Below, piece by piece: positions 1 to 16,642 of a DNA stretch of 64,000 bases (the stretch's first letter is position 1; the number at the start of each line of letters is the position of its first letter). Below the pieces are notes generated by a model. The model saw only the letters and a list, made by a program, of their open reading frames with translations. It made no database searches and was not told where the DNA came from. The position numbers and the translations under genes are program-made. Source of the DNA: Methanobacteriota archaeon (GTDB lineage: Archaea > Thermoplasmatota > Poseidoniia > Poseidoniales > Poseidoniaceae); NCBI GenBank assembly GCA_002726495.1, contig PBTH01000020.1, forward strand, positions 6,650 to 70,649, given 5' to 3'.

Positions 1-3000
1 ATGAGCGTGATGTTCCTTACCATGCTAACTGTAATTTTCTTGATGGCTCTTCCGTTCTACGGACATCCACAACTTTCCCTTGTTCTTGATTCAACAGGAC
101 TTCAACCGTTCTTGTTTATCTTTGGATTTACGCTTGCGATCGCATTCGTAACAACAGGATTCCGTGACAAGCCATGGTTGCTCGTTTTGGGAACTCTTGG
201 CGGACTTGCAGCGGTGTTCTTTACACTGCTCTTTGCCCTCAAGTTCGCAGGATGGTCCGATGCATGGGACGTTCTCTTCACTGGAAGCGGATATTTCACC
301 AAGACCAAGATTTTCGGAACTGTTGCTGAAGCAAATGCTCCGAACCGAGCTCAACTCTTTGCCTCATTCGGCCCGATAACCTTCTTGCTCGCCCTTGTCA
401 TGGGTGGTACCTTCCTCTGGAGAGGAATGCGTTATCGTCGCTCCACCGATCTGGTTTTCGGTGTGTGGCTCTTTGCAGCTACGTTCATGGCTTGGAACGC
501 TGCTCGTTTCATGTTTAACGCAACTCCGATTATGGCCATCCTCGGTGCAGTTGGTATCGCTTCCTTGTGGAAGTGGGCAAACTGGAGTGGTCTGGTTCGT
601 TCATGGAAGAAGTTCGGGATCCGAACCCCTGCCGACCGTATCGCAGGAGCACGAAAGGCTGTATGGCGAACACCTCAGTTCTCAGCAATTTTCCTCGTTA
701 TGCTCATGCTCTTCAGCCAACAAGCGACTTACGGTCTTGATTCAGCAATTCCTGGCTCTTCTTCATCTGCAGAAGGAGACCTCGATGAAAGAATTTACGA
801 CATCGTTCCAGACATTCTTCGGTTTGATGGACTCGGTTTCTCTATTCTTGACAGCAGCAACCACGAAGGTCGCTGGTATCTTGGAAACTTCGGTTCATCC
901 TTCAACGATGACGGATGGAATCGGGCCTATGAATGGCTTGCTGGACAAGATACAAATGTCACGTACTCTGAACGTCCTGCATTTGTGTCATGGTGGGACT
1001 ACGGTTTCCAAGCATTGACCACAGGTGATCACCCATCGGTTTCAGATAACTTCCAGTCAGGAATTCCAGCAACAGGTAACATGTTGCTCGCACGAAACCA
1101 AGACGATTTGACGGCTATGTTCATCTGGCAACTTGCTGAAGGTGACCGTGATTACGCAAAATCCAAGGGATTGGATACAGTCTTCACTCCTAAATTCCAG
1201 GACATTCTAGATGATTACCTAACTGTAGAGCAGGTTGATGAGTTTACACAAATGGAAACACGTTCCGATGAAGGCATGATTGAATTTATTCAAGATCGCT
1301 CATTCTCCGTTGTCAAAACCAATCGAAACATCGTCATGGCTACAGGACACCAACATGTGGCTGGAATATTTGATGCCGATACGCTTGTTTACCGCCTCTA
1401 CAAAGACGGCGTTCAACTTCCATGTGAATCCGAAACAACCGGTATTTGCTTGGGTGATGACTGGCTCGATAAGAGTGCAGCAGAACAATCATTCAGCAAC
1501 AACATTCGTTCGGCAGATGATACTGTTGAATCAGCATCTCACACGATTTTCGGCGAATATTGGTACACAGAAGATTTGATCGAGGATTATCTTGATGTTG
1601 CAACATCAATTCACAGGAAGAATTCCCGTATTGCAATGGTCACTCAACTCCTCACTGCAGCCCTTGATGCTCGGGAAGATGTAACCATCCACGACATGTA
1701 CCACGACATCATGGACGTCGGTGGAGAAGAGGGCAACTACAATGTGCAAGATTACGAAAAGGCACCTGGTGAGACCATTTCAAGAGATCACGAAATCCGC
1801 TACTTTGCTATTGACAATCGTTTGTACCCCCGTGCTGGTCGCTATACAGCTGATTACAATTACAACGGAGGCCAACCCATGGGTATCTTCGGTGCTCCTA
1901 CCATCCTTGCTGGCCAAGATACTGGCACATACATGGATGAAGTGTACGAAACCATTCGTGGTGACTTCAGTGACGAAATGACTCGTGAAGAGGTTGACCT
2001 CGCAATGCAAAAGGATTTCTTGAATCAGCAAGCAGGAGCAGAAATTGACCCGTTGCAGATTGAGGATGTCCGTGTTGATCACATGCCAGCATTCTTTGAC
2101 ACCATGGTTGCACGAACCTATGTTGGATATGGGGCTTCGACCCTTGGATTGGACACAGCATCTTCCAATCCACAACCATCTCAACACTTCATGGTTTCAG
2201 GTTCTCCGGGCAGCATTCTATCTTCAGCCCTTCCTTTGCCTGGTGCAATGATGAACCACTATGTCATTGCCAACTGGTATGATGATGAAACTGAATCCGG
2301 AATTACTGACTCAAACACCAAGGTAAAGATTCTCAAATACTATCCTGGAAATCAAATCACTGGTCAAGTAACCATGTCCGATAACAGCGAGGGAATCCCT
2401 GGCGTCCGTCTCTTAATCGAGCGTGATGCGTTCTCTGGTGAAGGTCCAGAAGACCTTGATGCAGACACGTATTGGATTCCAATTGGATTCGTAGATGCTG
2501 ATGAAAACGGCAATTACGAGTACACGGTCCCAGCAGGCCGGATTCGTGTTTCTGCCTTTGCAGGAGAATACGACCCAGTCGCAGCTCAGGATTCAATTCG
2601 TGATGGCAGTTATGCTCAAGTTAACAACAACAATCTCGATATTACTTCAGAAACGAACGGAGAGCGTGATGTCTATGCAATAACTGCCCTTCTTGGTCAG
2701 GTTGCTAACATGACTTGGCTGGGTGACGCAGAAATGAACGTCACAGCTGCAATGGCTAACCGAGACGTTAACATCGACACACCTCTTGATGTTTCCATCA
2801 AGAGCAGTGGTGTTTCGGGAACAGTTGTCTGGACTGGCGATGAGTCCTTCTCGGGAGACGCAGTTTCCAATACGACCTTTATCCTACGCAACATTTGGTC
2901 CATGACCGAGAATTATACCGTGACAACAACCAGCGGTTCAATCACCTCCGAAGAGAGCAGAATCCTTCAAGGAACTGGAGAGGCTACATTTACTGAAAAT

Positions 3001-6000
3001 GGAACGTTTGAAAGTACAGGTATGGCAGTTGCAAAGAATTTCATTGGTACATTTACCCGTGAACTCGGAGACAACCGCATGTTCTTTGCAAATGGAACAT
3101 GGGATGGTGTTGGTACTATTGAAGCAACATGGATGGAATCTGTAAACTCTACCGATTGTGAGTTGAGCAACGATTCTTTGCCAATCATGCCGGCCAATTA
3201 CACCGTTTGTGTTGTTGACATCAAAGATGGCATGACCACATACCGTGTCGAGGGAAGTGTCAACGCATCCGGTACCTTCACTTCAGAAGGCATAACAACA
3301 CTCACACGAACTTATGGAGACTATGACACTGGAAGCGGTGATACATTCGAAGGTGCAGGTTCCTACGAAGGTATTGGTACATTCAATGGTACTGGATTGT
3401 TCATTGGTTCTGGAACCTTTTCGGGTCCAATGGTTGAGCCGGGTTCATTCTACAGAACAGGATTGCTACCAGGTACATACAACATGATCGCCATGCTCGA
3501 TAACAACAAAACAGTGGTTCTACCCGACCCTGTAGTTGTTGGTGTCGCACCAAGTTACGACCTTGCAATGACCATGCCAGGTGCAATCTTTGAGGATGTC
3601 CTCAAGGACATGGACGGAGAACTCATGCCGAACAAAACCATTGAATTGATCGATGTAGACCTCGGTGAAGAATTCAAGATAAGTATTGATACCGATGAAA
3701 ATGCAAGTTTCAGTTACGGTCCGATTCCTAAGGGAGATTATTACTACAGAATTGACGCAGACGGCGACAAATGGTTTGACCTCAATGAATCTGTAACAGT
3801 GGATGACGAAACAACAAACATCACTCTAGCATTCGGAGTTCCAGCCACTGTTGACGTCACACTGCATCTTGTATCTCCAGTCAACCCAACCACACAAGAA
3901 CCTCTCTTTGATGTCGTTAACCGGACCATCACATTTGACAACACGGCCGGCATCCTTGACCCGGTAAATGTCACATCGGATGAAAACGGAACCGTATATG
4001 CTGAACTTTTGTTCGGCGTCTATGATATCCGAGATGATGTTAACACGCAATATGTGCTCTTTGACCAAATTGACATTGGATTTGGTTCTGATGATTTGGA
4101 AAAGAACATCACCTACGCTGAATCTGTTTACCTCAACGGAAGTCTACGCTATGATCCGGCTTATGACGACGAGGTTGCTCACGCCGACTGGCTTGCTCAA
4201 TCACCAGAAGTCAAGCTTGAAGCCAGTCAACCCGCCAGTGGGGTTACAGTTGTGTTTAGCAGCGGTGTATTGACCTTTACATCGGTCACGAACCTTACTG
4301 GAAATTACTCAGTACGTGTGCCTGCTGGATTTGATTATGATATGACGACGAGCATGGTCACTCAGGAACTGGGTGGTGGCCAATTGGTTGCTGTATCAAG
4401 TGCGGATGATATGGACATGGGTGTCTTGTATCTGGAGCCAACTACTACGGTTGCAGGAGTTATCCACCTTTACGATAACATGACTCGGTGGAGCAATACT
4501 ATTCCTCGCTGGGAAGCACCAGAGATTGTTGCGACCAACGAAGACGGATTGCAATGGACCACGACTGCCAACGAGATGGGAGAATTTGACTTGAACCTCA
4601 TTGATGGTACATGGGAACTCAGTGTTGCGGAAGAACTTCTCAACATTGATCCTGTTTCTGGAATTGTGGTCAACCGCTCCCTCACTGAGGAGATGTCTGT
4701 GATGGAACTCTTTGCCAACCCTGCATCGGTTGAAGTTTCCTTTGAGATATTCCTCAATTCAGCGGAGGATGGTTCATTTGAGAACGGAACAAAGGTTTCT
4801 CCTAACTTCCGTCTTGTTCCTGCCGATGAATCCCGTGAAGCCATTTACCTTACATCAGCCAATTACACCTCGGATGGCGTCGCTAATGTATCCTTGACAC
4901 CAGGGACCTACACTCTTGTCTTCAACCGAACAACGGCAAGCCATGAGAATGCGACCGATTATGACCTCGTAGGTGAGATTGTCTTTGAAGACATCTACAT
5001 CGGACTTGATGGTCCTGAAGAACCTCTTCCAGTTCCATTGAGAAATACATATCTCGTCACTGGTACATTGCTGAACTCTTCTGAAGTAGGAATCATGAAT
5101 GATTTCTTACTTTACAACGAAGCCGATGACCTTTGGTTTACTGATATTGGTTCAGATGAAAACGGTACCTTTGCAGCCTACGTCCCTGCTGGTGAATGGT
5201 TGATGATTGTCGCACCGTTCTCATACACGAACTCCACTGAAACCCTCCGAGCTCCACTCTCTATTGGAGTCGATTCCTCGGTTCGTCTCAATCAGACTTT
5301 CACGACTCTTGAAGCGGTTGATGTATCAGTTCAGTTGAAAGAACTCTTGACACTTGGTGAACTTCCAGATATGAATCTTGTAGCGGTAAGCGAAGACGGC
5401 CTTGGTAATGTGACCTTCGAAAAGACGGATTCAAACGGTACCATTGAACAAATGCTCATGCCAGGAAACTGGAGCCTGTTCCTCAACAAATCTTCAGGCC
5501 AACGTACATGGTACCTCAACACTTCTGCAACACCTTTCAACATGGACAGTGCTGAAAATGGAAGCTTAGCTCTTGACCCAGTCTTTGCTGCTTTGGAAGT
5601 AGAGATCGGAGGAAGAGTCTACTGGGACCTTGACAACAACAGTGCACCCTCGGAAAGCGAAGGGCTTGAAGGATTCAATGTGACCGTTATCGGTGCAAAT
5701 AATTCAGAAGTTAACACTGTTGTAACAACCGATGCAACGGGTGTATGGACACTCTTTGTCCCAATTCAAGATGTGTACAATGTTACTGTTGAGAAAGATG
5801 GGTTCGATACTGTGTATTACATGACCGGCAATGACTCCGGCTTTACAGTTTACAACAGTCCACAATCAACAGATATCGAAGTTGTCGCTGGATTGGTTGA
5901 AGTAACCGGTTCAGTCACTGATCAAGTCGATACCAACCGCCTCAACGGGGCGTCGATCGTATTGTATCCGAAGGCAGGAATTGAACGTGACTCAGTCACT

Positions 6001-7749
6001 GTAACAGGAGCCATGGTTAACGATACTCTTGAGTGGTCCGCCATGGTGCAACCTGGTGAATGGATTGTGGTCGTAACGGACGCAAACCCAACTCCAAACG
6101 GTGGCGGTGTTGCAGTTGCTTTGCTTGATGCAAGCGTTTCTGATGGTGGAAACATATCAATGGAAATGGCTCTCGGTGGATATCTTGTTCTTGATACGGA
6201 ATGGTTCCCACTCGGGGCTACAACCCCTAATCATGCAGGAGCGGACAATGCGAATGCAGGCGTGATGTCAGAATCAGTTGTTCTTGAAACATCGTTTGAT
6301 GGTAATTCATGGATGGTTGACTTGCCAACAACCGGTACACTCAACCTGCTCATGCCTGAGGGAAGTGTATTGTTTGATAGTTCATTCATGACCACTCAAC
6401 ATTCCAGTAACTTGGAAATGGAATACTTTGGAGGACAAAGTATGACCGTGGCTTCGGATTCAACCATCACAGCAGTATTGGACTACAACCGTCGAATTAA
6501 CTCTGCTCTTGACCTTGAGTTTAACAGCGTTGATGGGGGATTGCTCATGAACGCCACCGATATTGAAATCGGAGCGGTGGTTTCCTCAACAAATGATACA
6601 CTTTACGACCAGTTCATCTTCTCTGTTGACGTCACCTACAACGGTACTGAATCCATGGATGTGTTCACGGTAACCGCTGAAATGGGCTTGGCACAGGATT
6701 CAGACCTATGGACAGTTGAACTGTACAATGAAACCAGCCAAGAGTGGGAAAGTTCAGTTCTCATGTCCCTCGGTGTCGGGAATGTGACCGGTGCAGGCGC
6801 AATCCTATCGGATAATGTCAGTGTTAGAGTCACTCTTCCTTCAGTTGAGAATGCATGGCATCTTGACAACGGTCATCGAGTCTCAGTACGTCTTGAAACT
6901 GAATCCGGAGAAGCCAGCCAAATCACGGTGAAGGCAGTTGTTCCTTCAGATTATGATTATGTCATTTCGGATGCTACAGAACTTCTTGGAATTTCTCCGT
7001 TGGTAAAGCGTGAATTCAGCTTTGACCTGACCAACATTGGAAACGGTAAAGATACGTTTACAATGGAACTTTTGGAAAGCGGAATCCCTGAGGGATGGTC
7101 CGTAACTCCAATGGATTCCAACGTCACGCTTGCAAAGGGTGAAACTCGTGTTCAGATCTTTTCAGTGTTTGCACCTGCAGACTTCAATGAAGACGGTGGA
7201 TTTGATTTGAAGGTCTATGTGGACAATCTTGGAGGAGATGCTAAGGAAGTGGATGTCACAATCCAATACGCCCAAATCAAACTCTCTGTTGACCAAGGTG
7301 AAATTGCAACAGAATCAGATGACATAGCAAACGTTGCAGGAAATGTCGTGATTCCAGTGCGTAACAGTGGACTATTGGACGCAACATCGGTCATTGTATA
7401 TCTCAAACCAGTCGGCGAAGGAACTGTTGAGTTCCAACAAACGATCACTGTGCCAGCCAATGAAACAGTAAACGCAGTGTTTGACAACATTACAAGAGAA
7501 CAAGGCGACCATCGCTTTGAAGTTCGCTTAGAAGTTGTTGGTGAAGAGGCAAACAATGTAGAATCAATCACCCTTCCAGGTACTGCCGATCAAAACGGTA
7601 TACACGACTTCCAACTGCGATACGACCCTGCAGTATCTCCTGATGGAGATTCCATATGGTTGACACTGGCAGTGGTTGTTCTTGGATCGCTTGTTGTGTA
7701 CGGCGGTGTCAAGACAGCACGTAGCGGTCGGTCCGGTTCTAAGTTCTGA
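1..7749 (+). CDS. aglB: AglB/STT3-type oligosaccharyltransferase core fused to a giant extracellular beta-sandwich array with a C-terminal membrane anchor. The N-terminus may lie upstream of the window.
   Basis: The frame is open from nt 1. A multi-TM N-terminal region is followed by the canonical WWDYG motif (nt 991-1005) and a downstream 'IRYFAIDNRLYP...GIFGAP' segment like the STT3 DK/MI region. About 1,850 aa follow with repeated 'D/SxNG.[FY]...P.G.Y' signatures (carboxypeptidase-regulatory-like) and 'N.GN' signatures (CARDB-like). The protein ends in a TM helix (about nt 7650-7710) and a short basic tail. Confidence 0.75.
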   Translation: MSVMFLTMLTVIFLMALPFYGHPQLSLVLDSTGLQPFLFIFGFTLAIAFVTTGFRDKPWLLVLGTLGGLAAVFFTLLFALKFAGWSDAWDVLFTGSGYFTKTKIFGTVAEANAPNRAQLFASFGPITFLLALVMGGTFLWRGMRYRRSTDLVFGVWLFAATFMAWNAARFMFNATPIMAILGAVGIASLWKWANWSGLVRSWKKFGIRTPADRIAGARKAVWRTPQFSAIFLVMLMLFSQQATYGLDSAIPGSSSSAEGDLDERIYDIVPDILRFDGLGFSILDSSNHEGRWYLGNFGSSFNDDGWNRAYEWLAGQDTNVTYSERPAFVSWWDYGFQALTTGDHPSVSDNFQSGIPATGNMLLARNQDDLTAMFIWQLAEGDRDYAKSKGLDTVFTPKFQDILDDYLTVEQVDEFTQMETRSDEGMIEFIQDRSFSVVKTNRNIVMATGHQHVAGIFDADTLVYRLYKDGVQLPCESETTGICLGDDWLDKSAAEQSFSNNIRSADDTVESASHTIFGEYWYTEDLIEDYLDVATSIHRKNSRIAMVTQLLTAALDAREDVTIHDMYHDIMDVGGEEGNYNVQDYEKAPGETISRDHEIRYFAIDNRLYPRAGRYTADYNYNGGQPMGIFGAPTILAGQDTGTYMDEVYETIRGDFSDEMTREEVDLAMQKDFLNQQAGAEIDPLQIEDVRVDHMPAFFDTMVARTYVGYGASTLGLDTASSNPQPSQHFMVSGSPGSILSSALPLPGAMMNHYVIANWYDDETESGITDSNTKVKILKYYPGNQITGQVTMSDNSEGIPGVRLLIERDAFSGEGPEDLDADTYWIPIGFVDADENGNYEYTVPAGRIRVSAFAGEYDPVAAQDSIRDGSYAQVNNNNLDITSETNGERDVYAITALLGQVANMTWLGDAEMNVTAAMANRDVNIDTPLDVSIKSSGVSGTVVWTGDESFSGDAVSNTTFILRNIWSMTENYTVTTTSGSITSEESRILQGTGEATFTENGTFESTGMAVAKNFIGTFTRELGDNRMFFANGTWDGVGTIEATWMESVNSTDCELSNDSLPIMPANYTVCVVDIKDGMTTYRVEGSVNASGTFTSEGITTLTRTYGDYDTGSGDTFEGAGSYEGIGTFNGTGLFIGSGTFSGPMVEPGSFYRTGLLPGTYNMIAMLDNNKTVVLPDPVVVGVAPSYDLAMTMPGAIFEDVLKDMDGELMPNKTIELIDVDLGEEFKISIDTDENASFSYGPIPKGDYYYRIDADGDKWFDLNESVTVDDETTNITLAFGVPATVDVTLHLVSPVNPTTQEPLFDVVNRTITFDNTAGILDPVNVTSDENGTVYAELLFGVYDIRDDVNTQYVLFDQIDIGFGSDDLEKNITYAESVYLNGSLRYDPAYDDEVAHADWLAQSPEVKLEASQPASGVTVVFSSGVLTFTSVTNLTGNYSVRVPAGFDYDMTTSMVTQELGGGQLVAVSSADDMDMGVLYLEPTTTVAGVIHLYDNMTRWSNTIPRWEAPEIVATNEDGLQWTTTANEMGEFDLNLIDGTWELSVAEELLNIDPVSGIVVNRSLTEEMSVMELFANPASVEVSFEIFLNSAEDGSFENGTKVSPNFRLVPADESREAIYLTSANYTSDGVANVSLTPGTYTLVFNRTTASHENATDYDLVGEIVFEDIYIGLDGPEEPLPVPLRNTYLVTGTLLNSSEVGIMNDFLLYNEADDLWFTDIGSDENGTFAAYVPAGEWLMIVAPFSYTNSTETLRAPLSIGVDSSVRLNQTFTTLEAVDVSVQLKELLTLGELPDMNLVAVSEDGLGNVTFEKTDSNGTIEQMLMPGNWSLFLNKSSGQRTWYLNTSATPFNMDSAENGSLALDPVFAALEVEIGGRVYWDLDNNSAPSESEGLEGFNVTVIGANNSEVNTVVTTDATGVWTLFVPIQDVYNVTVEKDGFDTVYYMTGNDSGFTVYNSPQSTDIEVVAGLVEVTGSVTDQVDTNRLNGASIVLYPKAGIERDSVTVTGAMVNDTLEWSAMVQPGEWIVVVTDANPTPNGGGVAVALLDASVSDGGNISMEMALGGYLVLDTEWFPLGATTPNHAGADNANAGVMSESVVLETSFDGNSWMVDLPTTGTLNLLMPEGSVLFDSSFMTTQHSSNLEMEYFGGQSMTVASDSTITAVLDYNRRINSALDLEFNSVDGGLLMNATDIEIGAVVSSTNDTLYDQFIFSVDVTYNGTESMDVFTVTAEMGLAQDSDLWTVELYNETSQEWESSVLMSLGVGNVTGAGAILSDNVSVRVTLPSVENAWHLDNGHRVSVRLETESGEASQITVKAVVPSDYDYVISDATELLGISPLVKREFSFDLTNIGNGKDTFTMELLESGIPEGWSVTPMDSNVTLAKGETRVQIFSVFAPADFNEDGGFDLKVYVDNLGGDAKEVDVTIQYAQIKLSVDQGEIATESDDIANVAGNVVIPVRNSGLLDATSVIVYLKPVGEGTVEFQQTITVPANETVNAVFDNITREQGDHRFEVRLEVVGEEANNVESITLPGTADQNGIHDFQLRYDPAVSPDGDSIWLTLAVVVLGSLVVYGGVKTARSGRSGSKF

Positions 7750-7815
7750 TATTGGAACATTTTGGCCCCTTGTCAAACAAGGGTTCTTGAATCAAACGAT
7801 AGGATAGTCACCACT

Positions 7816-9030
7816 ATGGAAGGTCTTGACCATGTTGAGTACCTACCAGAACCTACTGATAAGAACATAGTTTCTGCAGTCGACCCCGCTGTTGTTGGTC
7901 ACCAGGTCGGTTGGCGCTCCGAGGTCATGGGTTGGGCACCACTGCCGGCTGAGCCGATTGTCCGTACGAGAAGGCGCGCGCTCACTGCAACGAATATCAT
8001 GGGTTTTGCAGTTCTTGTATCAATTGGTATGCTCTTGTGGCAGAACGACCTCCTCATAGTGGATTTGCCACTTGAAGACAGTGAATGGGCCTTTGAGACA
8101 ATCGGTGTTCGTGAACTCAATCAACAGGGATTAACTGGAGAGGGTGTACGTGTTTGCATGGTCGATACAGGTATTGAATTCGATCATGATGCCTTTGATG
8201 GTAAATCTATACTGTTTCATGATATGATTGGTACATCAACGGAGCCACGCGAATATGGGGTGATCGCTCATGGGACGTTGATGGCAGGGATTCTCATCGC
8301 TGATGGGCATCAATCAGGCGTAGCACCTAACGTAACATTCGCTATGGTAGCAGCCCTCCAAGACGATGGTTCAGGAAAAAACAGTGGACTTGAATCAGAT
8401 GTTGGTGATGCGATACGTTGGTGCCAATTTGAATTCGAAGCAGACATCATCTCACTTTCCCTTGGAGGTACTCCAAGCATGATGAATGAACGGGAGGGAG
8501 ATTCCGTATCAGCAACACGACAGGCTACTGATAATGGAATCTATGTCGTAGCAGCTGCCGGAAATGACGGAGGTCCAGATGATGATGGAGATGTTGCAGC
8601 TCCGGGTAACGTGCCGCGAGCGATTTCAGTTGGAGCAACAACCCGTAGCGAGGGCATCTGGGAAAATTCATCTGTTGGAATGCGCAATGGTGATGGTTTT
8701 ACGAGACAAAGTCCCCACTTAAAGCCTGAAATCGTAGCCCCTGGCCATCAAATTATCAGCACTGGAAACGACAATCGCTGGTACACGAGCAGTGGAACTT
8801 CTGATTCTACCGTTTTCGTTGCAGGGGCACTGGCCCTTCTTTTAGAAGCCAATCCGCAATTACGTCCCAATTCTCAAAGTGACGGCTCCTGCATTGACAT
8901 CGTCAAAGAAGCGCTCATGAACTCTGCTAAATCAATCGGTCAGGGTGAGGGCCATCATCCATATGCTGGATACGGACTTCTTGATGCTCAGAAATGGATT
9001 GATTCAATCCCCTCCGAATCCTCATGTTGA
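7816..9030 (+). CDS. Membrane-anchored subtilisin-like serine protease (peptidase S8)
   Basis: Catalytic triad motifs are present: 'VCMVDTGIEFDHDAF' (Asp), 'AHGTLMAGIL' (His) and 'SGTSDSTVFVAGALALLLE' (Ser). An N-terminal signal-anchor 'IMGFAVLVSIGMLLW' is present. The ORF track opens at a TTG at 7762; the first ATG is at 7816. Confidence 0.85.
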   Translation: MEGLDHVEYLPEPTDKNIVSAVDPAVVGHQVGWRSEVMGWAPLPAEPIVRTRRRALTATNIMGFAVLVSIGMLLWQNDLLIVDLPLEDSEWAFETIGVRELNQQGLTGEGVRVCMVDTGIEFDHDAFDGKSILFHDMIGTSTEPREYGVIAHGTLMAGILIADGHQSGVAPNVTFAMVAALQDDGSGKNSGLESDVGDAIRWCQFEFEADIISLSLGGTPSMMNEREGDSVSATRQATDNGIYVVAAAGNDGGPDDDGDVAAPGNVPRAISVGATTRSEGIWENSSVGMRNGDGFTRQSPHLKPEIVAPGHQIISTGNDNRWYTSSGTSDSTVFVAGALALLLEANPQLRPNSQSDGSCIDIVKEALMNSAKSIGQGEGHHPYAGYGLLDAQKWIDSIPSESSC

Positions 9031-9207: not shown

Positions 9208-12200
9208 ATGGGAAGAATAGGTGCATCCGATATGTCCCAGAAATTAAAAGCAAAAAGTTTCTCAATTGTAACGCTCTTCTTGTTGTCGTCATTGTTGGGG
9301 CTCGTAGCACTTCCAACAGCTTCTGCTGTGAATGAAACAACAAAGGGTACAATCACTGGTGTAGAAACCTGGACGGGTACAATGAACCTTCAAGGTGACA
9401 TTGAAGTGGCGGAAGGTGCAAAACTGGTCGTCAACGCTGGAACCACTGTCAACATCCCATACGGAAATTACATCGATGTCAAAGGTGCTATTTGTATTGG
9501 TGATTCGGCTTGCGGTGCGAGTGCGGGTTCTTCATCCAACCAAGCCAGATTCATCTGGAGCACACCAAGCGATTATTCCGAAAATGGGTGGTGTCTTAAC
9601 AATCAATCACAGTTACTCAACAATCCCGATACGGCTTGTGGCTCAGGAATGATTATTCGTGATACCATTGACCAATCTTTGACTTCACTCAATTATGCGC
9701 ACTTCGAAAACGGTTATGGCCACCCCACCTACGTCGCAACACTGCAACAAGTTCAGTACGGTGTTCTCGTCTTTGACGGATCAAGCACCACTGCTCGTGG
9801 ATTGACATTCAAGGATACCAATACCTCAAACGTTCTTGCAATTGACTTTGCTTCACCAACCATCACTGACTCCGAGTTTGAACTTGGTATTGACGGTCAA
9901 GGCTACGATGCAGCTGCAGTTCGTGCATACGGTGCAGGTGCTGGAATTTTGTCAACCTTCAAACTTTCAACTTCTGTGTTTACTGGAAACGATGCTGATT
10001 GTGGCAATCAAGGTGGAGGCCGTGCTGTGATTTACATTGAGGACAGTTATGTGGACATGGACGACCTCGAAATCAAAGAAAACGCATACGGTGTTCTCTT
10101 GAAACAAAGTTCTGGCTCATTGACCAATTCCGATCTTACTGTAAAGTGCAACGCAATCGATACAAATTCATTGAAAACAACGGGCACCATCAACCATCTT
10201 CTGACCGTCAACGATAACACCATCACGACCGAGGAAGGAGCAGGTATCACGGCTTATGACGGTGCAAATGTCTACGCTGAGGGCAACACAATATCAGGCG
10301 CCAGTGAAGGATCCGGTGTTGGTATCCGTTCATCAACCGTTGAGTTACACGACAACGTCATTGGCCCAATCGGTGGATGGAACGGTCTTTGGATTTACGG
10401 AACATCAGATGTCATTGCTGAAAACAATACCATCAAAGAAGCCACGAAAGAAGCTGTCCTCATCGGTGAATACCACTATCAGGACCAAGGTTGGCAAGTC
10501 CCAGCCCCTACAGCAGCTCGTCTTTACTTTGCAAATAACATCATCCAGAACAGCAGTGGAACTTGTAATTCCCAAATTTATGGCGGTGATTTCGCCTGTC
10601 CTGCAATTCACGTGTTCATGTCTTCTGCGACAATAATGGACAATACAATTACTGGCAATACTGGAGATATCATTCGAGCGAAGGGCGGCCTTGTCAATGT
10701 CCAACGCAATACTGCCGATTCAGCCGGTGGATTTGCAGGAAACATCTCAATGTATGATAACAACTACGGAGACAAATACGGTTCAGTTGCATACTTCTCA
10801 GGAAATACTTGGACAGGAGTTTCTCAAGTTTACAATGTTACAGAATCTCGTGTCACCGTCCAGAGTGAACAGATTCCGTCTCCTGGCTATGGGGAACTTT
10901 ACCCTGTCTCGATCAGTTGGGAAGGAGCCGAGTGCCCATTCGTTCAAACCGAATGCTTGCAACTTCCTGGAACGGCAGTGCTTCCTCCTGCTCAAATGCC
11001 TTTGGCCATTGAACTGGTTGACAATGCAACGGTCTTCTCTTATGCAGATTTGCAAAACTTTGATTCTTCTATGATACATGTCCAAAACCAAAACACAGCA
11101 TGGGGTTCCCAAGTTCGTGAAGGTGAACTGGTTCGCTACCAAGTCAAGGCAAAGAACAGCAACGTGCAAGGGGCGACCGTCGTCATCAAGGATGCAACAG
11201 GTCTACCGCTTTACGAATTGACAACCGATGCCTTTGGATTCACACAGCAGGTATCCCTGCCATCCGATTTCTTATTGGACCGCAATTGGAATCACCAAGT
11301 TGGAGATAAGAATGCAATCATTCCAGGTTCTGGAAATCCGCCAGTGACCATTGACGAAGATTCCTGTGCTGACGGCATTGATAACGATGGCGACACAATG
11401 ATTGACGGCGATGATGCCGATTGTATCAATGGACGAGAAATGCCATTCTACAGTGTTGAAGCCTTCAAGTTCGGCAGCGGTACTAAGGACTTCTCATACG
11501 TTCTCTCCGGACCTATTGACGATGTCATCAATTTGGACAATCTACGCCCAAGTGTTAGTGTGACACAACAAGACGGAGTGTCCTTTGCAACCACGGTCTC
11601 TCTCACCGGACAGTCTTGGGATGGCGTGAAGTGGCCATATGCCAATGATAACACGGCGAATCAGAAGCAGTTTGGAACGATCACTGCTGTAGAAGTTCAA
11701 CCACCAGGCACCAACGATTGGTACTCTGCTGTTGACACTTCTGGCGCCAATGGAGTCATCACAATGGAAAACCATCCCTTCAAGGATTGGTCATTTGATT
11801 GGGACATGTCTGCTCACCCTGAAGGTGAAGGCGATGTCACGTTCCGTGTCCGTTCCTATGACGGATTGGATTATTCTCCAGTAACCGTTCGATTGTACAA
11901 ACTGAACCTTGTTGCGCCAACCATCGTGGTCGACGTTCCAAACACAGGAAGTACGCACACCAATGGTAAAGTGCTTTTCCAAGGAACTGCTTCAGACCCA
12001 TACTCTGGAACATACGGTAGCGATGTCAAAAAGATCTGGTTCCACATAACAAGTGTTGAGAATGACTATGTGTCTCACTTTTACACTGAAGGTTCAACAA
12101 GCTGGTCATACGAATGGGACTTCAGCGAATTGCTTTCAGGTGAATACACCTTTGAGGTCTGGGCATCGGACAGTGATTTCTGTATCGATCAAGCAGTATC

Positions 12201-13614
12201 CGTAAGCGAAGGCGGCGTTTGTGTTATAGAAACACGCGTCCTCAACATCGTTAACGAAAACACCCCGCCTCAACTGCAACTTTCATGGATTGGTTCAGCC
12301 GACCAAAGCACCGGCGGTGTTGATGGAGGAACCATACGTGCAAGTACAGAAACAACCATTGTTGGTGTTGCTCGTGACATTGGTGGACAAGTGACCCGTG
12401 TTGAAATTGACATCGTAGAATTAGCAACCAGTATCACGCTCAACAACGGTCCACTCCCAGTAACTTCATTCAATCCTGATGGGTCATGGGTTGCTATTTG
12501 GGACACTTCCAAACTGGACAACGATGGTGTCTACGAAGTGACCGTACGTGCATACGATGGTGAAGATTACTCGCCCGACAGCGTCTGGAGAATGAAGATT
12601 AACAATCCAATTAATGCTGAAAACTTAGACCCAGTATTCAATGAAACTGGTTGGGTAGGTTCCATTACAATCTTCTGTGATGTTCAATCAAATTCAATCG
12701 ACAGATGCGGTGGAGGCGCTTCAATTGACCTCACGCAGTTCTTCAGCGACCCTGACGGAATCGGTGAGACAGCCGATGCATTGGAATTCTTCATTCTCGA
12801 TAATGAAGATACCCTTGAAGACGACAGTTATCAGACAGACATACGAATCACCTCTTCTGGAATCGCCATTTACGACCCTATGGAGGGTAAGGCACAAACA
12901 ACGAGCGAGATTTCTGAATGGTCGTTAAACGGTGTTATGTTCTACGCTGAAGACGTTCAAGAATCCAAGGTTTACGCCACGGTGAAGGTAAACTTCCTCG
13001 TAAGGGGCGTGGCGTTCAGTGCAGAGAGAGTCGACGAAGGACCAATCACTCCAAGTGATCCGGCGACCTTCCGAGGAGAAGGTCTCCCTGGAAGCACGGT
13101 GAATATTCGCTTCGCTAATGGAAATGCAAAGCTCAATTCAACCCGTGTATTGTCTGATGGGACATGGGAAATGGACCTGACAAACAGTCAGCTTGGTATT
13201 GAAGGAAATGAAGAAGTCATCTTCGAAATGGACGGTCAAGTGTTCAAATTTGCGGGCCAAACTGAAGATGGCGAATTTAGCATCGTAGTTTCCAGCGGAA
13301 TAGATGAAGATTCATCTCTCTTAACGATCATTTTGGTGGTTGGAGCGATTGTTGTTCTCTTGGGCGTGGGCGCATTCTTCTTCGTTGAATTTGAAGAAAT
13401 ACCTGACATTTCCGAAGAAGAAGAGGCACTTCTTGAAGTTGCAGAAGACCCCTATGCATGGGCCAAGGCAAAACAAACACCAACTATTCCTCAACAAGAA
13501 GCGGCTCCTGCAGAACCCGAACAACAGGTCGCAGAGACATCAACTCACCCGGGTTGGATTTGGGACCAAGCCACAAACCAGTGGGTTCCGGACCCAAATT
13601 ACTCAGCTGAGTAG
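9208..13614 (+). CDS. Giant surface protein with an N-terminal parallel beta-helix-like repeat region, Ig-like domains, a C-terminal TM anchor and a cytoplasmic tail
   Basis: 1,468-aa ORF. The signal peptide 'MSQKLKAKSFSIVTLFLLSSLLGLVALPTASA' suggests the start is at ATG 9232. Repeated short 'N.I..N / G..I' turns typical of right-handed beta-helices span about nt 9330-10890. A Cys-bounded acidic motif 'CADGIDNDGDTMIDGDDADC' lies at nt 11364-11424. The TM helix 'LLTIILVVGAIVVLLGVGAFFFV' is followed by an acidic, Pro-rich tail. Confidence 0.8.
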   Translation: MGRIGASDMSQKLKAKSFSIVTLFLLSSLLGLVALPTASAVNETTKGTITGVETWTGTMNLQGDIEVAEGAKLVVNAGTTVNIPYGNYIDVKGAICIGDSACGASAGSSSNQARFIWSTPSDYSENGWCLNNQSQLLNNPDTACGSGMIIRDTIDQSLTSLNYAHFENGYGHPTYVATLQQVQYGVLVFDGSSTTARGLTFKDTNTSNVLAIDFASPTITDSEFELGIDGQGYDAAAVRAYGAGAGILSTFKLSTSVFTGNDADCGNQGGGRAVIYIEDSYVDMDDLEIKENAYGVLLKQSSGSLTNSDLTVKCNAIDTNSLKTTGTINHLLTVNDNTITTEEGAGITAYDGANVYAEGNTISGASEGSGVGIRSSTVELHDNVIGPIGGWNGLWIYGTSDVIAENNTIKEATKEAVLIGEYHYQDQGWQVPAPTAARLYFANNIIQNSSGTCNSQIYGGDFACPAIHVFMSSATIMDNTITGNTGDIIRAKGGLVNVQRNTADSAGGFAGNISMYDNNYGDKYGSVAYFSGNTWTGVSQVYNVTESRVTVQSEQIPSPGYGELYPVSISWEGAECPFVQTECLQLPGTAVLPPAQMPLAIELVDNATVFSYADLQNFDSSMIHVQNQNTAWGSQVREGELVRYQVKAKNSNVQGATVVIKDATGLPLYELTTDAFGFTQQVSLPSDFLLDRNWNHQVGDKNAIIPGSGNPPVTIDEDSCADGIDNDGDTMIDGDDADCINGREMPFYSVEAFKFGSGTKDFSYVLSGPIDDVINLDNLRPSVSVTQQDGVSFATTVSLTGQSWDGVKWPYANDNTANQKQFGTITAVEVQPPGTNDWYSAVDTSGANGVITMENHPFKDWSFDWDMSAHPEGEGDVTFRVRSYDGLDYSPVTVRLYKLNLVAPTIVVDVPNTGSTHTNGKVLFQGTASDPYSGTYGSDVKKIWFHITSVENDYVSHFYTEGSTSWSYEWDFSELLSGEYTFEVWASDSDFCIDQAVSVSEGGVCVIETRVLNIVNENTPPQLQLSWIGSADQSTGGVDGGTIRASTETTIVGVARDIGGQVTRVEIDIVELATSITLNNGPLPVTSFNPDGSWVAIWDTSKLDNDGVYEVTVRAYDGEDYSPDSVWRMKINNPINAENLDPVFNETGWVGSITIFCDVQSNSIDRCGGGASIDLTQFFSDPDGIGETADALEFFILDNEDTLEDDSYQTDIRITSSGIAIYDPMEGKAQTTSEISEWSLNGVMFYAEDVQESKVYATVKVNFLVRGVAFSAERVDEGPITPSDPATFRGEGLPGSTVNIRFANGNAKLNSTRVLSDGTWEMDLTNSQLGIEGNEEVIFEMDGQVFKFAGQTEDGEFSIVVSSGIDEDSSLLTIILVVGAIVVLLGVGAFFFVEFEEIPDISEEEEALLEVAEDPYAWAKAKQTPTIPQQEAAPAEPEQQVAETSTHPGWIWDQATNQWVPDPNYSAE

Positions 13615-13639
13615 TGTTTGCTAGAGCAGGGTGTTTTGA

Positions 13640-16165: not shown

Positions 16166-16642
16166 TCATTGGACTGCTTGTGGCCGATCAAGGGTTACAG
16201 TAGTGGCCCCATTTTCATGAACTACCCATATTCGTTCAGCACCTGCTAATGGGATTTCTCCACTGTGTGCTCCGCTTCCAGTGCCTGAAAGAAGGACTTC
16301 CATGTCAAGAGGGCCGCCTTTGTCAATTAATTCAAGTGAAGTGTCAGTCAGTCGAATGTAAAACAGGGATTCGTCAGCCTCTGTAGGCCTCCAAGAAACC
16401 GATTCAGCATAACTCACATTGCCAATTCGACTTGCTTCATCAGCCCGCTCAATGGCGGCTGCCAAGTCGTTCATGTTCGCCTCAACCGCCTCTTCATTCC
16501 AACGCAAACGGGTATTGGTTTCAATGTCCCATGCCCATACACTGAACATGGTCATGAGCAATACTCCGAGCAGAAATGTGAACACATAACCAAGTTCAGT
16601 AGCAGCTGCACGCATGTCTCTTGACAATCTTACTTGTTTCAT
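16166..16642 (-). CDS. Small protein with an N-terminal class III (type IV pilin-like) signal or TM segment
   Basis: N-terminus 'MKQVRLSRDMRAAATELGYVFTFLLGVLLMTMF': a charged stretch followed by one hydrophobic helix. The start ATG overlaps the upstream gene's stop (ATGA at 16639-16642). Confidence 0.5.
   Translation of the reverse strand: MKQVRLSRDMRAAATELGYVFTFLLGVLLMTMFSVWAWDIETNTRLRWNEEAVEANMNDLAAAIERADEASRIGNVSYAESVSWRPTEADESLFYIRLTDTSLELIDKGGPLDMEVLLSGTGSGAHSGEIPLAGAERIWVVHENGATTVTLDRPQAVQ

What the first reader, a model, noticed from the sequence alone, without database searches (positions are those of the whole stretch)
1..7749. Oligosaccharyltransferase (AglB) core fused in frame to a ~1,850-residue adhesin-like ectodomain with a second membrane anchor
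The WWDYG catalytic motif (nt 991-1005) and the downstream STT3-like segment are continuous with about ten carboxypeptidase-regulatory-like beta-sandwich repeats and CARDB-like modules. The ORF ends in a TM helix, so the ectodomain would be tethered at both ends. AglB enzymes that I know of are roughly 600-1,000 aa. Here at least 2,582 aa lie in a single frame with no stop. By eye the product carries on the order of 50 N-x-S/T sequons (an approximate count), so the enzyme may be a major substrate of its own activity. Fusing an N-glycosylation enzyme to a giant envelope scaffold could couple glycosylation spatially to envelope assembly.
Basis: partly seen in the sequence, partly recalled or inferred. 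Interest (0 to 1): 0.72.

Follow-up and report, generated by a model that had tools for sequence, protein, structure and literature searches.

The report
Giant membrane-tethered archaeal oligosaccharyltransferase (AglB)
The N-glycosylation enzyme of this marine archaeon (Marine Group II, Poseidoniales) is a real single protein of about 3,200 residues whose outer part is a long, sugar-site-rich rod anchored in the membrane a second time; the design is shared across a whole archaeal phylum but I found no paper describing it.

Summary
Nt 1-7749 is one open frame of 2,582 codons, cut at its 5' end by the window; the full protein is about 3,200 aa. WWDYG lies at nt 991-1005. There is one C-terminal TM helix plus a basic tail. 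The outer part has 56 N-x-S/T sequons against 20 +/- 4 in shuffles.

It is not an assembly artefact. 52 species-level Poseidoniales genomes carry the same uninterrupted frame (3,168-3,260 codons, CV 0.6%). Long-read assemblies split it only by frame changes at scattered positions.

The catalytic motifs are invariant: TVAE and WWDYG in the window, DPWY and DHD in orthologues. The outer 1,800 aa are modelled as all-beta sandwiches with no other enzyme domain. Sequon enrichment (about 2.5-fold) and many single sites are conserved.

More distant giants of 2,000-2,770 aa, from MAGs labelled Methanomassiliicoccales and Thermoplasmata, have a colinear, homologous ectodomain (hhalign E 6e-81). The fusion is therefore ancient and widespread, not special to this window.

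A membrane-anchored S8 subtilase follows the gene in 56 of 56 loci.

Best reading: an active AglB with a built-in, fixed-length, heavily N-glycosylated, doubly anchored surface arch. What the arch does is inferred, not shown. "Adhesin-like" is not favoured.

The parts
1..7749 (+). Giant AglB gene, 5'-truncated by the window (2,582 codons plus stop). The full-length orthologue is about 3,197 aa.
1..740 (+). Last five or so transmembrane helices of the STT3 membrane domain, including external loop 5.
   Evidence: Hydropathy peaks at aa 10, 45, 69, 128 and 180. NCBIfam TIGR04154 archaeo_STT3 matches aa 7-368 to profile positions 245-574, E 2.8e-13.
319..330 (+). TVAE (aa 107-110), a TIxE-type motif of external loop 5 that holds the catalytic Glu.
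   Evidence: T107 and E110 are invariant in alignment A1. The tier-ii homologue has TISE at the aligned position. The role of the motif is from established AglB/PglB structural work, cited from memory.
991..1005 (+). WWDYG motif (aa 331-335).
   Evidence: It is invariant in 43 sequences and aligns to the WWDYG of solved AglB C-terminal domains 3vgp and 3vu0.
868..2118 (+). Extracytoplasmic AglB globular core (aa ~290-706), with a less conserved insert at aa ~371-560.
   Evidence: Model pLDDT is 75-93. Foldseek gives A. fulgidus AglB 7e9s prob 0.97 and 3wai prob 0.93.
2119..2259 (+). Connector (aa 707-753), predicted to be coil but as conserved as the catalytic core (YVGYGASTLG...PLPGAMMNH).
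   Evidence: family identity 0.74. A homologous element is present in tier-ii proteins.
2323..7635 (+). All-beta ectodomain (aa ~775-2545). I estimate roughly 15-17 beta-sandwich modules from the strand pattern; this was not counted on coordinates. It carries 56 N-x-S/T sequons.
   Evidence: Models 1 and 2. Foldseek matches pilin shafts, transthyretin, alpha2-macroglobulin MG arrays and integrin legs. Pfam CarboxypepD_reg E 3.7e-13.
2854..3384 (+). Poseidoniales-specific insert (aa 952-1128): very long beta strands, an invariant Cys pair (C1053/C1070) and G-x-G-x-F repeats.
   Evidence: No counterpart in the tier-ii profile.
5656..5820 (+). Best-scoring CarboxypepD_reg / NOMO-like transthyretin-fold module (aa 1886-1940).
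7030..7182 (+). Weak NPCBM_assoc (CARDB-clan) module (aa ~2344-2394).
   Evidence: E 0.033. True CARDB hits occur near the C-terminus of tier-ii homologues.
7654..7746 (+). C-terminal transmembrane helix (aa ~2552-2573) plus the basic tail ending ...SKF.
   Evidence: Every intact family member ends in a TM helix, a basic tail and a final Phe, as ...[KR]F in the GTDB loci and ...PF in some representatives. F2582 is nearly invariant.
7762..9030 (+). S8 subtilase with an N-terminal signal-anchor-like helix. It is the invariant downstream neighbour, probably co-transcribed. The likely true start is the ATG near nt 7816.
   Evidence: Pfam Peptidase_S8 E 3e-39. It lies 16-115 nt downstream on the same strand in 56 of 56 loci.
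9208..16165 (+). Conserved downstream neighbours: a secreted beta-helix protein (9208-13614) and an HTH-STAND NTPase-TPR protein (13640-16165).
   Evidence: Pfam. Both keep the same order and spacing in nearly all loci with enough flank.

Best explanation
This is the oligosaccharyltransferase AglB of a Poseidonia-like Marine Group II archaeon, in a giant form that is ancestral to much of the phylum Thermoplasmatota.

Build, from N to C terminus:
- an extra polytopic region of about 350 aa (outside the window);
- the STT3 membrane domain;
- the WWDYG globular domain on the outer face;
- a conserved connector;
- about 1,770 aa of beta-sandwich modules;
- one stop-transfer helix with a basic cytoplasmic tail.

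Shown:
- It is a single gene, conserved as one frame.
- The catalytic motifs are intact.
- The ectodomain is all-beta with no other enzyme domain.
- Length and domain order are rigidly fixed.
- Sequons are about 2.5-fold enriched and many are positionally conserved.

Inferred mechanism:
- The enzyme module is inserted and folds first.
- The rest of the chain is then threaded outward and N-glycosylated at some 50 sites. This is done by resident copies, or by the protein's own active site, which sits next to the emerging chain.
- The last helix re-anchors the chain.
- The result is a fixed-length, glycan-coated arch tethered at both ends beside the active site.
- I take the arch to be a permanent structural part of the enzyme at the cell surface, a built-in scaffold or spacer that also contributes to the glycocalyx. 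I do not take it to be a variable adhesin.
- In Poseidoniales the adjacent membrane-anchored subtilase may trim or mature it.
For: Single gene:
- 52 of 80 GTDB species loci hold an uninterrupted frame of 3,168-3,260 codons, and 24 more are cut by a contig end; 23 of those 24 stay open as far as the contig runs, and L066 also carries an internal stop.
- The long-read loci L001-L003 are colinear over all 2,582 aa, with frame changes at different places.

AglB identity:
- TIGR04154 E 2.8e-13.
- PF02516 scores above its gathering threshold in the full-length orthologues P0054 and P0109.
- The family profile matches A. fulgidus AglB 3WAJ at E 5e-15, aligning GGsDPWY and aDHD.
- WWDYG aligns to solved AglB domains.
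- Foldseek gives 7e9s prob 0.97.
- T107, E110 and W331-G335 are invariant.

Ectodomain:
- Model 2 has pLDDT 85.5, is all-beta and ends in one helix.
- It gives only generic beta-sandwich rod matches.

Glycosylation:
- 56 sequons against 20.3 +/- 4.0 in shuffles.
- Median enrichment is 2.47-fold in 52 orthologues, against 0.66-fold in the core.
- 31 alignment columns carry a sequon in at least half of 53 sequences, and N903 and N913 occur in 53 of 53.

Antiquity:
- 85 of 142 representatives exceed 2,000 aa.
- The ectodomain-only profile comparison with 66 tier-ii proteins gives Prob 100, E 5.9e-81 and 1,362 colinear columns.

Topology:
- The basic tail after the last helix fits the positive-inside rule.
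- The AglB C-terminal domain is extracytoplasmic in the solved structures (established knowledge).
Against: - No experiment bears on activity, glycosylation, processing or localisation.
- The DK/MI-type motif that completes the Ser/Thr pocket could not be located by sequence.
- The membrane part of model 1 is poor because the sequence is truncated.
- I could not check whether these genomes also carry a conventional AglB that does the general work.
- A 1:1 fusion of a low-copy enzyme to a surface scaffold argues against the arch being the main envelope layer.
- The invariant subtilase neighbour and the conserved unstructured connector are also compatible with cleavage into two proteins.
Confidence: 0.6

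Rival explanations
1. Precursor model. The gene encodes a polyprotein, and after export the ectodomain is cut from AglB, for example by the co-transcribed membrane-anchored S8 subtilase. It then acts as an independent C-terminally anchored surface glycoprotein, an envelope or S-layer-like component. The fusion would serve only to deliver the ectodomain next to the glycosylation site.
For: - The S8 subtilase lies 16-115 nt downstream on the same strand in 56 of 56 loci and has a signal-anchor helix.
- A connector predicted as coil (aa 707-753) is as conserved as the active site.
- The ectodomain has the features of archaeal surface glycoproteins: all-beta, sequon-rich, C-terminal anchor.
- Some tier-ii members carry a PGF-like motif before the last helix, as archaeosortase substrates do.
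Against: - The connector motif is also conserved in tier-ii proteins.
- The one tier-ii locus inspected has no subtilase neighbour.
- No stand-alone ectodomain gene was found. The shorter hits inspected at DNA level (L001-L003) are frameshift splits, and others sit on contigs too short to hold the whole gene; several without an STT3 hit on long contigs were not checked.
- No cleavage site is identifiable.
Confidence: 0.2
2. Adhesin model. The ectodomain is an adhesin that attaches the cell to particles or other cells, and AglB merely provides a membrane anchor and local glycosylation.
For: - The rod of Ig-like, pilin-shaft-like beta-sandwiches resembles bacterial adhesin and pilin stalks.
- The window is rich in other giant secreted proteins.
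Against: - Length CV is 0.6% over 52 species at 41-88% identity.
- Domain-by-domain colinearity extends across orders.
- There is no terminal binding or lectin domain.
- Both ends are in the membrane, so there is no free tip.
- The gene appears as a single conserved locus with fixed synteny, unlike fast-evolving, repeat-variable adhesins.
Confidence: 0.1
3. Pseudo-enzyme model. The STT3 part has lost activity and survives only as a polytopic anchor for a surface protein, while another AglB glycosylates proteins.
For: - The DK/MI motif was not found by sequence.
- Pfam AglB_core-like scores are below threshold.
- The presence of a paralogue was not tested.
Against: - DPWY, DHD, T-x-x-E and WWDYG are invariant, and the core is highly conserved (identity 0.72-0.74) across the family.
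- The same motifs are kept in distant tier-ii proteins.
Confidence: 0.05
4. Artefact. A missed frameshift, stop or chimeric join creates a false fusion of an ordinary AglB gene with a neighbouring surface-protein gene.
For: Gene calls on long-read assemblies show a 913-1,213-aa STT3 protein followed by separate large ORFs.
Against: - Those splits are frame changes at different, non-homologous positions, one directly after WWDYG, in assemblies that also fragment neighbouring housekeeping genes.
- 52 independent, mostly short-read assemblies keep one frame.
- Composition is even across the junction.
Confidence: 0.02

Closest known systems
Archaeal AglB (e.g. Archaeoglobus fulgidus AglB-L, PDB 3WAJ/7E9S, 868-875 aa; Pyrococcus AglB C-terminal domains 3VGP/3VU0)
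   Same: - STT3 membrane domain.
- DPWY and DxD-type acidic motifs, in orthologues.
- T-x-x-E motif in external loop 5.
- WWDYG in an extracytoplasmic globular domain.
- Sequence and fold matches.
   Different: - About 3.7 times longer.
- An extra polytopic region of about 350 aa at the N terminus.
- A large insert in the globular core.
- About 1,770 aa of beta-sandwich modules after the core.
- A second membrane anchor at the C terminus.
- The DK/MI motif is not recognisable by sequence.
Uncharacterised giant STT3 proteins of Methanomassiliicoccales/Thermoplasmata MAGs (2,000-2,770 aa; e.g. NCBI MFA5772382.1, named 'carboxypeptidase regulatory-like domain-containing protein')
   Same: - The same overall architecture.
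- A homologous, colinear ectodomain (E 5.9e-81).
- The same connector motif.
- A single C-terminal helix with a basic tail.
- Sequon enrichment.
   Different: - No N-terminal extension.
- They lack the inserts at window aa 868-906 and 952-1128.
- Their CarboxypepD_reg and CARDB signatures are clearer.
- Some have a PGF-like motif before the last helix.
- There is no subtilase neighbour at the one locus seen.
Eukaryotic OST complex: STT3 plus non-catalytic type-I subunits with lumenal beta-sandwich domains and C-terminal TM helices (ribophorins, OST48); resemblance recalled from memory
   Same: Works like: a catalytic STT3 accompanied by beta-sandwich domains on the non-cytoplasmic face, each held by a C-terminal helix. 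Self-glycosylation of the catalytic subunit is known for yeast Stt3 and Campylobacter PglB (from memory).
   Different: - Here everything is one polypeptide.
- No homology to the accessory subunits was shown.
- The Pfam NOMO/EMC7-like hits are generic transthyretin-clan matches.
- This is an analogy only, not membership.
Archaeal surface (S-layer) glycoproteins with a C-terminal anchor (e.g. Haloferax volcanii S-layer glycoprotein, PGF-CTERM/archaeosortase A substrate)
   Same: All-beta, heavily N-glycosylated and exported, with a C-terminal hydrophobic anchor followed by basic residues.
   Different: - It is covalently continuous with the enzyme.
- The window protein has no PGF motif (the sequence before the helix is SPDGDSIW).
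- Lattice formation and abundance are unknown.

Membership tests
AglB/STT3 oligosaccharyltransferase catalytic subunit | Polytopic STT3 membrane domain (Pfam PF02516 / NCBIfam archaeo_STT3) | tested here: met
   The window fragment lacks most of this domain, so PF02516 is silent. TIGR04154 matches aa 7-368 at E 2.8e-13, below its full-length cut-off. The full-length orthologues P0054 and P0109 score 39.4 and 55.1 bits against a cut-off of 24.5. The family profile matches 3WAJ at E 5e-15.
AglB/STT3 oligosaccharyltransferase catalytic subunit | WWDYG motif in the extracytoplasmic domain | tested here: met
   It lies at aa 331-335, is invariant in 43 sequences and aligns to the WWDYG of 3vgp, 3vu0 and 3waj.
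AglB/STT3 oligosaccharyltransferase catalytic subunit | Acidic catalytic residues of external loops 1 and 2 (D in DPWY; DxD-type motif) | tested here: met
   These lie upstream of the window. In the orthologue profile, GGsDPWY aligns with GGNDPWY of A. fulgidus AglB, and aDHD aligns with NDHH. They are nearly invariant in A1. This is not verifiable on the window sequence itself.
AglB/STT3 oligosaccharyltransferase catalytic subunit | TIxE/SVSE-type motif with the catalytic Glu in external loop 5 | tested here: met
   TVAE is at aa 107-110, and T107 and E110 are invariant. The tier-ii homologue has TISE at the aligned position.
AglB/STT3 oligosaccharyltransferase catalytic subunit | DK/MI-type motif that completes the Ser/Thr-binding pocket | tested here: inconclusive
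   The core-only profile aligns to solved AglBs only around WWDYG. A candidate is the invariant stretch R600-Y-F-x-x-D605...I629-F630, but no structural superposition was possible.
AglB/STT3 oligosaccharyltransferase catalytic subunit | AglB-like fold of the C-terminal globular domain | tested here: met
   Foldseek gives 7e9s prob 0.97 (E 6.7e-4) and 3wai prob 0.93. TM-scores are low because the model has many domains.
AglB/STT3 oligosaccharyltransferase catalytic subunit | Transfer of lipid-linked glycan to Asn in N-x-S/T | not testable with these tools
   This needs biochemistry or genetics.
CarboxypepD_reg (PF13620) transthyretin-like beta-sandwich repeats | Pfam score above the gathering threshold | tested here: met
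   50.1 bits against a cut-off of 32.3, with 3 stretches. A fourth stretch appears in the segment scans.
CARDB (PF07705) | Pfam match | tested here: not met
   No CARDB hit at E <= 10 in the window protein, only NPCBM_assoc at E 0.033-0.087. The homologues P0128 and P0206 do hit CARDB near their C-termini.
PGF-CTERM / archaeosortase A substrates | P-G-F motif immediately before a C-terminal TM helix and basic tail | tested here: not met
   The window protein reads ...SPDGDSIWLTLAVVVLGSLVVYGGVKTARSGRSGSKF. The family ends in a conserved ...[KR]F or ...PF instead. Several tier-ii proteins do have PGF/PGFE before the helix.
Repeat-variable surface adhesins | Variable repeat number or length between related strains and species, and a distal binding module | tested here: not met
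   Length is 3,168-3,260 codons, CV 0.6%, n=52. The ectodomain is colinear across orders. No binding or lectin domain was found.
S-layer glycoprotein | Highly abundant and forms a 2-D lattice covering the cell | not testable with these tools
   No expression, proteomic or imaging data were available. One metatranscriptome paper lists an 'oligosaccharyltransferase' among genes more abundant in metatranscriptomes where Thalassarchaeaceae genus O1 was active (PMC9723583), without saying which gene.

The most novel reading that the evidence does not exclude
The enzyme and its principal substrate are one polypeptide. On this reading the giant AglB is the major self-glycosylating envelope protein of Poseidoniales and related Thermoplasmatota. 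Its fixed-length, doubly anchored glycan-coated arches would build the cell's outer coat in place of a conventional S-layer, and the adjacent subtilase would mature it. It would also be a single-chain counterpart of the eukaryotic arrangement of STT3 plus beta-sandwich accessory subunits.
Probability: 0.15. Interest if true: 0.85.

Novelty: new variant of a known kind. Interest (0 to 1): 0.6.

Why it matters
Poseidoniales are among the most abundant archaea in the surface ocean and remain uncultured. Their cell envelope is essentially unknown.

In every genome sampled here, the enzyme annotated simply as STT3 (or as a 'hypothetical protein') is a protein of about 3,200 residues. It carries a conserved, sequon-dense, doubly anchored ectodomain. 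A shorter version pervades MAGs labelled Methanomassiliicoccales and Thermoplasmata.

That changes what 'AglB' means for a whole phylum. It gives a concrete candidate for a major surface glycoprotein. It also offers a natural single-chain model for how an OST can be coupled to beta-sandwich modules on the outer face of the membrane.

There is a practical lesson as well. Long-read assemblies and short contigs fragment this gene into an 'STT3' piece and a 'carboxypeptidase regulatory-like' piece, which hides the architecture in databases.

Tried and rejected
- **CARDB.** Pfam and NCBIfam on the whole protein and on ten overlapping segments found no CARDB hit, only weak NPCBM_assoc, DUF11 and choice-of-anchor-T matches.
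- **DK/MI motif.** I built a core-only profile (A4) and searched it against PDB sequences. Only the WWDYG neighbourhood aligned.
- **Foldseek.** Searches of the two multi-domain models gave AglB plus generic beta-sandwich rods. No lectin, enzyme or S-layer match appeared. I did not run the viral library.
- **Literature.** Nine searches found nothing describing a giant or fused AglB. They combined AglB, STT3 or oligosaccharyltransferase with Poseidoniales, Marine Group II, Thermoplasmata, Methanomassiliicoccales, archaeosortase, carboxypeptidase regulatory-like and S-layer. Two papers were read in part. Subscription-only literature was not searchable.
- **Stand-alone ectodomain.** Hits without an STT3 domain that I inspected at DNA level (L001-L003) are frameshift-split genes, and others lie on contigs too short to hold the whole gene. 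Several such hits on long contigs were not checked.
- **Subtilase link in tier ii.** It was not seen at the one tier-ii locus retrieved.
- **Artefact hypothesis.** Rejected.
Full report
**1. The observation**

Translation of nt 1-7800 in frame 1 gives 2,582 sense codons and then a stop at 7747-7749. The ORF list shows no competing long frame.

- WWDYG is at aa 331-335, which is nt 991-1005.
- Hydropathy finds five helices in aa 1-190. After that there is nothing until a single helix at aa ~2552-2573, followed by KTARSGRSGSKF.
- There are 59 N-x-S/T sequons, 56 of them after aa 781. Shuffling the ectodomain 2,000 times gives 20.3 +/- 4.0 (maximum 36). The reversed motif occurs 18 times.
- GC content is flat at 0.45-0.49 across the proposed junction.

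The description is therefore accurate. The main correction is that the frame is open at base 1.

**2. The gene is cut by the window**

NCBIfam TIGR04154 (archaeo_STT3) matches aa 7-368 to profile positions 245-574. tblastn places window residue 1 about 624 aa into P0012.

In the closest relative, L004 (88% identity), the frame is 3,202 codons from stop to stop. The first ATG is at codon 5, which gives about 3,197 aa.

Full-length orthologues have about 20 hydrophobic peaks before WWDYG. Pfam STT3 begins only at about residue 400. So an extra polytopic region of about 350 aa precedes the canonical enzyme.

**3. Not an artefact**

A scan of GTDB species representatives found at least 532 relatives. 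The best 80 are all Poseidoniales apart from two obviously mis-binned records.

| Loci (of 80) | State of the frame holding WWDYGFQ |
|---|---|
| 52 | Uninterrupted, 3,168-3,260 codons |
| 24 | Cut by a contig end (L066 also has an internal stop) |
| 4 | Interrupted or shortened (L008, L024, L048, L049) |

Length is extremely constrained: SD 19 codons, CV 0.6%.

Three long-read, pilon-polished contigs (L001-L003) have the gene called as a 913-1,213-aa STT3 followed by separate ORFs. Yet all 2,582 window residues align colinearly there. The frame changes fall at different positions in each locus, and one is directly after WWDYG. Housekeeping neighbours such as purD are split as well. These are indel errors, not real gene boundaries.

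**4. The enzyme part**

- The family profile (A1) matches A. fulgidus AglB (3WAJ) at E 5e-15. GGsDPWY aligns to GGNDPWY, and aDHD aligns to NDHH.
- WWDYG and its flanks align to the solved AglB C-terminal domains 3VGP and 3VU0.
- In the window, T107 and E110 (TVAE, the TIxE-type loop-5 motif) and W331-G335 are invariant.
- Model 1 (aa 1-1180) is confident for aa 350-1180. Foldseek recovers AglB: 7e9s prob 0.97 and 3wai prob 0.93.
- I could not locate the DK/MI motif by sequence.
- The core has a less conserved insert at aa ~371-560 (identity 0.46, against 0.72-0.74 for the rest).

**5. The connector**

Residues 707-753 are predicted as coil. They are nevertheless as conserved as the catalytic core, at 0.74. 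The motif FFDTM..R.YVGYG...PLPGAMMNH has a clear counterpart in distant homologues, FFDTMFYKAYIGY...MPGWMMKHFKLVY. In both it is followed by the same KYY.GA..G.V start of the first sandwich. It is an old, functional element. It could be a docking segment or a processing site.

**6. The ectodomain**

- Pfam recognises CarboxypepD_reg (E 3.7e-13) plus NOMO-like and SpaA-like transthyretin-clan matches. It gives a weak NPCBM_assoc hit near aa 2344-2394 and no CARDB hit.
- Model 2 (aa 1384-2582) has mean pLDDT 85.5. It is all-beta and ends in a single helix at aa 2552-2573.
- Foldseek returns only generic beta-sandwich rods: alpha2-macroglobulin MG arrays, integrin legs, contactin and titin.
- From the strand patterns of both models I estimate roughly 15-17 modules.
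- Residues 781-1160 are more conserved (0.59-0.62) than the remainder (0.40-0.47).
- Residues 952-1128 form very long strands with an invariant Cys pair and G-x-G-x-F repeats. This module and aa 868-906 are specific to Poseidoniales.

**7. Glycosylation sites**

Across 52 intact orthologues the ectodomain holds 2.47 times the expected number of sequons (range 1.8-3.7). The enzyme core holds 0.66 times the expected number. 31 alignment columns carry a sequon in at least half of 53 sequences. 16 of the window's sites are shared by at least 80% of them, and N903 and N913 by all. Ectodomain identity is only about 46%, so this indicates selection on the sites themselves.

**8. A much larger family**

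An exhaustive HMMER search with aa 1-800 gave 413 representatives. Of 142 new ones, 85 exceed 2,000 aa.

Besides the Poseidoniales tier (3,150-3,230 aa) there is a distant tier, 32-37% identical over the membrane and WWDYG part. Its members are 2,000-2,770 aa, with WWDYG at aa ~575-690. They show 5-7 strong CarboxypepD_reg stretches, SdrD_B and true CARDB hits, plus one C-terminal helix and an Arg/Lys tail.

A follow-up search found at least 516 clusters, mostly 2,150-2,190 aa. They are labelled Methanomassiliicoccales, Thermoplasmata or Ca. Saliniplasma MAGs and carry only automatic names.

The Poseidoniales ectodomain profile aligns to the profile of 66 tier-ii ectodomains at Prob 100 and E 5.9e-81, over 1,362 colinear columns. 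Off-register alignments score E 1e-39 or worse. The fusion therefore predates the split of these lineages.

Several tier-ii proteins have PGF/PGFE immediately before the last helix. The window protein does not.

**9. Neighbourhood**

In 56 of 56 loci with enough flank, an S8 subtilase lies 16-115 nt downstream on the same strand. It is followed by a secreted beta-helix protein and an HTH-STAND-TPR protein at fixed distances. The subtilase has a signal-anchor-like helix. The one tier-ii locus retrieved lacks it.

**10. Interpretation**

Shown:
- one gene;
- an intact AglB motif set;
- an extracytoplasmic all-beta extension of fixed length;
- conserved sequons;
- a second anchor;
- ancient origin.

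Inferred:
- the enzyme is active;
- the extension is N-glycosylated, in cis or by neighbouring copies;
- it stays attached as a doubly tethered, glycan-coated arch that is a structural part of the enzyme at the surface.

The rigid length and colinearity argue against a variable adhesin. Equimolarity with a polytopic enzyme of more than 20 helices argues against it being the bulk envelope layer, though this is not excluded. Cleavage by the neighbouring subtilase is the main rival.

**11. Novelty**

The sequences are public but fragmented or generically named. Nine literature searches found no description of a giant or fused AglB. I rate it a new variant of a known kind: real, widespread and apparently overlooked, with its function still open.

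Noticed in passing
window 7762-9030 (+): An S8 subtilase with an N-terminal signal-anchor-like helix starts 13 nt after the giant ORF. It occupies the same position and strand in 56 of 56 Poseidoniales loci, which suggests co-transcription and a functional link such as maturation or cleavage. It is absent at the one tier-ii locus seen (L084).
   Followed up: partly
window 9208-13614 (+) and 13640-16165 (+): A secreted right-handed beta-helix/Big_7 protein (1,468 aa) and an HTH-STAND NTPase-TPR protein (841 aa) follow at fixed distances (about 1.45 kb and 5.9 kb) in nearly all loci. Upstream in relatives are purD and a CarS-like gene. This is a rigid gene block.
   Followed up: partly
L004:248-2120 and P0054 aa 1-400 (upstream of the window start): Full-length Poseidoniales orthologues carry an extra polytopic region of about 350 aa, with no Pfam match, in front of the canonical first STT3 helix. 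Tier-ii giants lack it.
   Followed up: partly
P0135, P0141, P0153, P0158, P0168, P0187 (C-termini): Several distant giant AglBs have a PGF/PGFE motif directly before the last helix and basic tail, like PGF-CTERM archaeosortase A substrates. If real, their ectodomain end would be cleaved and lipid-anchored. Poseidoniales instead end in a conserved ...[KR]F or ...PF.
   Followed up: no
window 2854-3384 (aa 952-1128): A Poseidoniales-specific, highly conserved insert with 18-28-residue beta strands, an invariant Cys pair (C1053/C1070) and G-x-G-x-F repeats. It does not look like a simple CarboxypepD_reg repeat, and its function is unknown.
   Followed up: partly
L001-L003 (long-read, pilon-polished contigs of 0.9-1.1 Mb): Frame-shifting indels split this gene, and neighbours such as purD and the subtilase, into several called ORFs. 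Databases therefore hold a roughly 900-1,200-aa 'STT3' and a roughly 2,000-aa 'hypothetical/CarboxypepD_reg' fragment, which hides the real architecture.
   Followed up: yes
L048 (record titled Salipiger bermudensis), L063 (Salinimicrobium sp.), P0103 (Deltaproteobacteria bacterium): Records labelled as bacteria carry this archaeal gene with its archaeal neighbours. These are probably mis-binned contigs in public MAGs.
   Followed up: no
window 26808-32210 (+) and 57349-62322 (+): Two otherwise unrelated giant secreted proteins (1,800 and 1,657 aa, both with signal peptides) end in the same short motif, P.GWT.EQWA.YG.Q (pairwise E 0.013). It may be a shared C-terminal sorting or attachment tag. 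ORF 9208-13614 ends in a loosely similar W-rich tail.
   Followed up: partly
window 16639-19955 (-): Two adjacent genes (744 and 361 aa) have N-terminal archaeal type IV pilin-like / DUF7289 signatures at weak E-values. They lie between the conserved block and a metallo-beta-lactamase-fold gene.
   Followed up: no
window 1-2340 versus 2341-7635: Sequons are depleted in the enzyme core (0.66 times expectation across 52 orthologues) while enriched 2.5-fold in the ectodomain. Other secreted proteins in the window are only mildly enriched or not at all (for example 29 against 16, 20 against 8, and 11 against 15).
   Followed up: partly
L008, L024, L048, L066, L049: A few species-representative loci have the giant frame interrupted or shortened. 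I did not determine whether these are pseudogenes or assembly errors.
   Followed up: no
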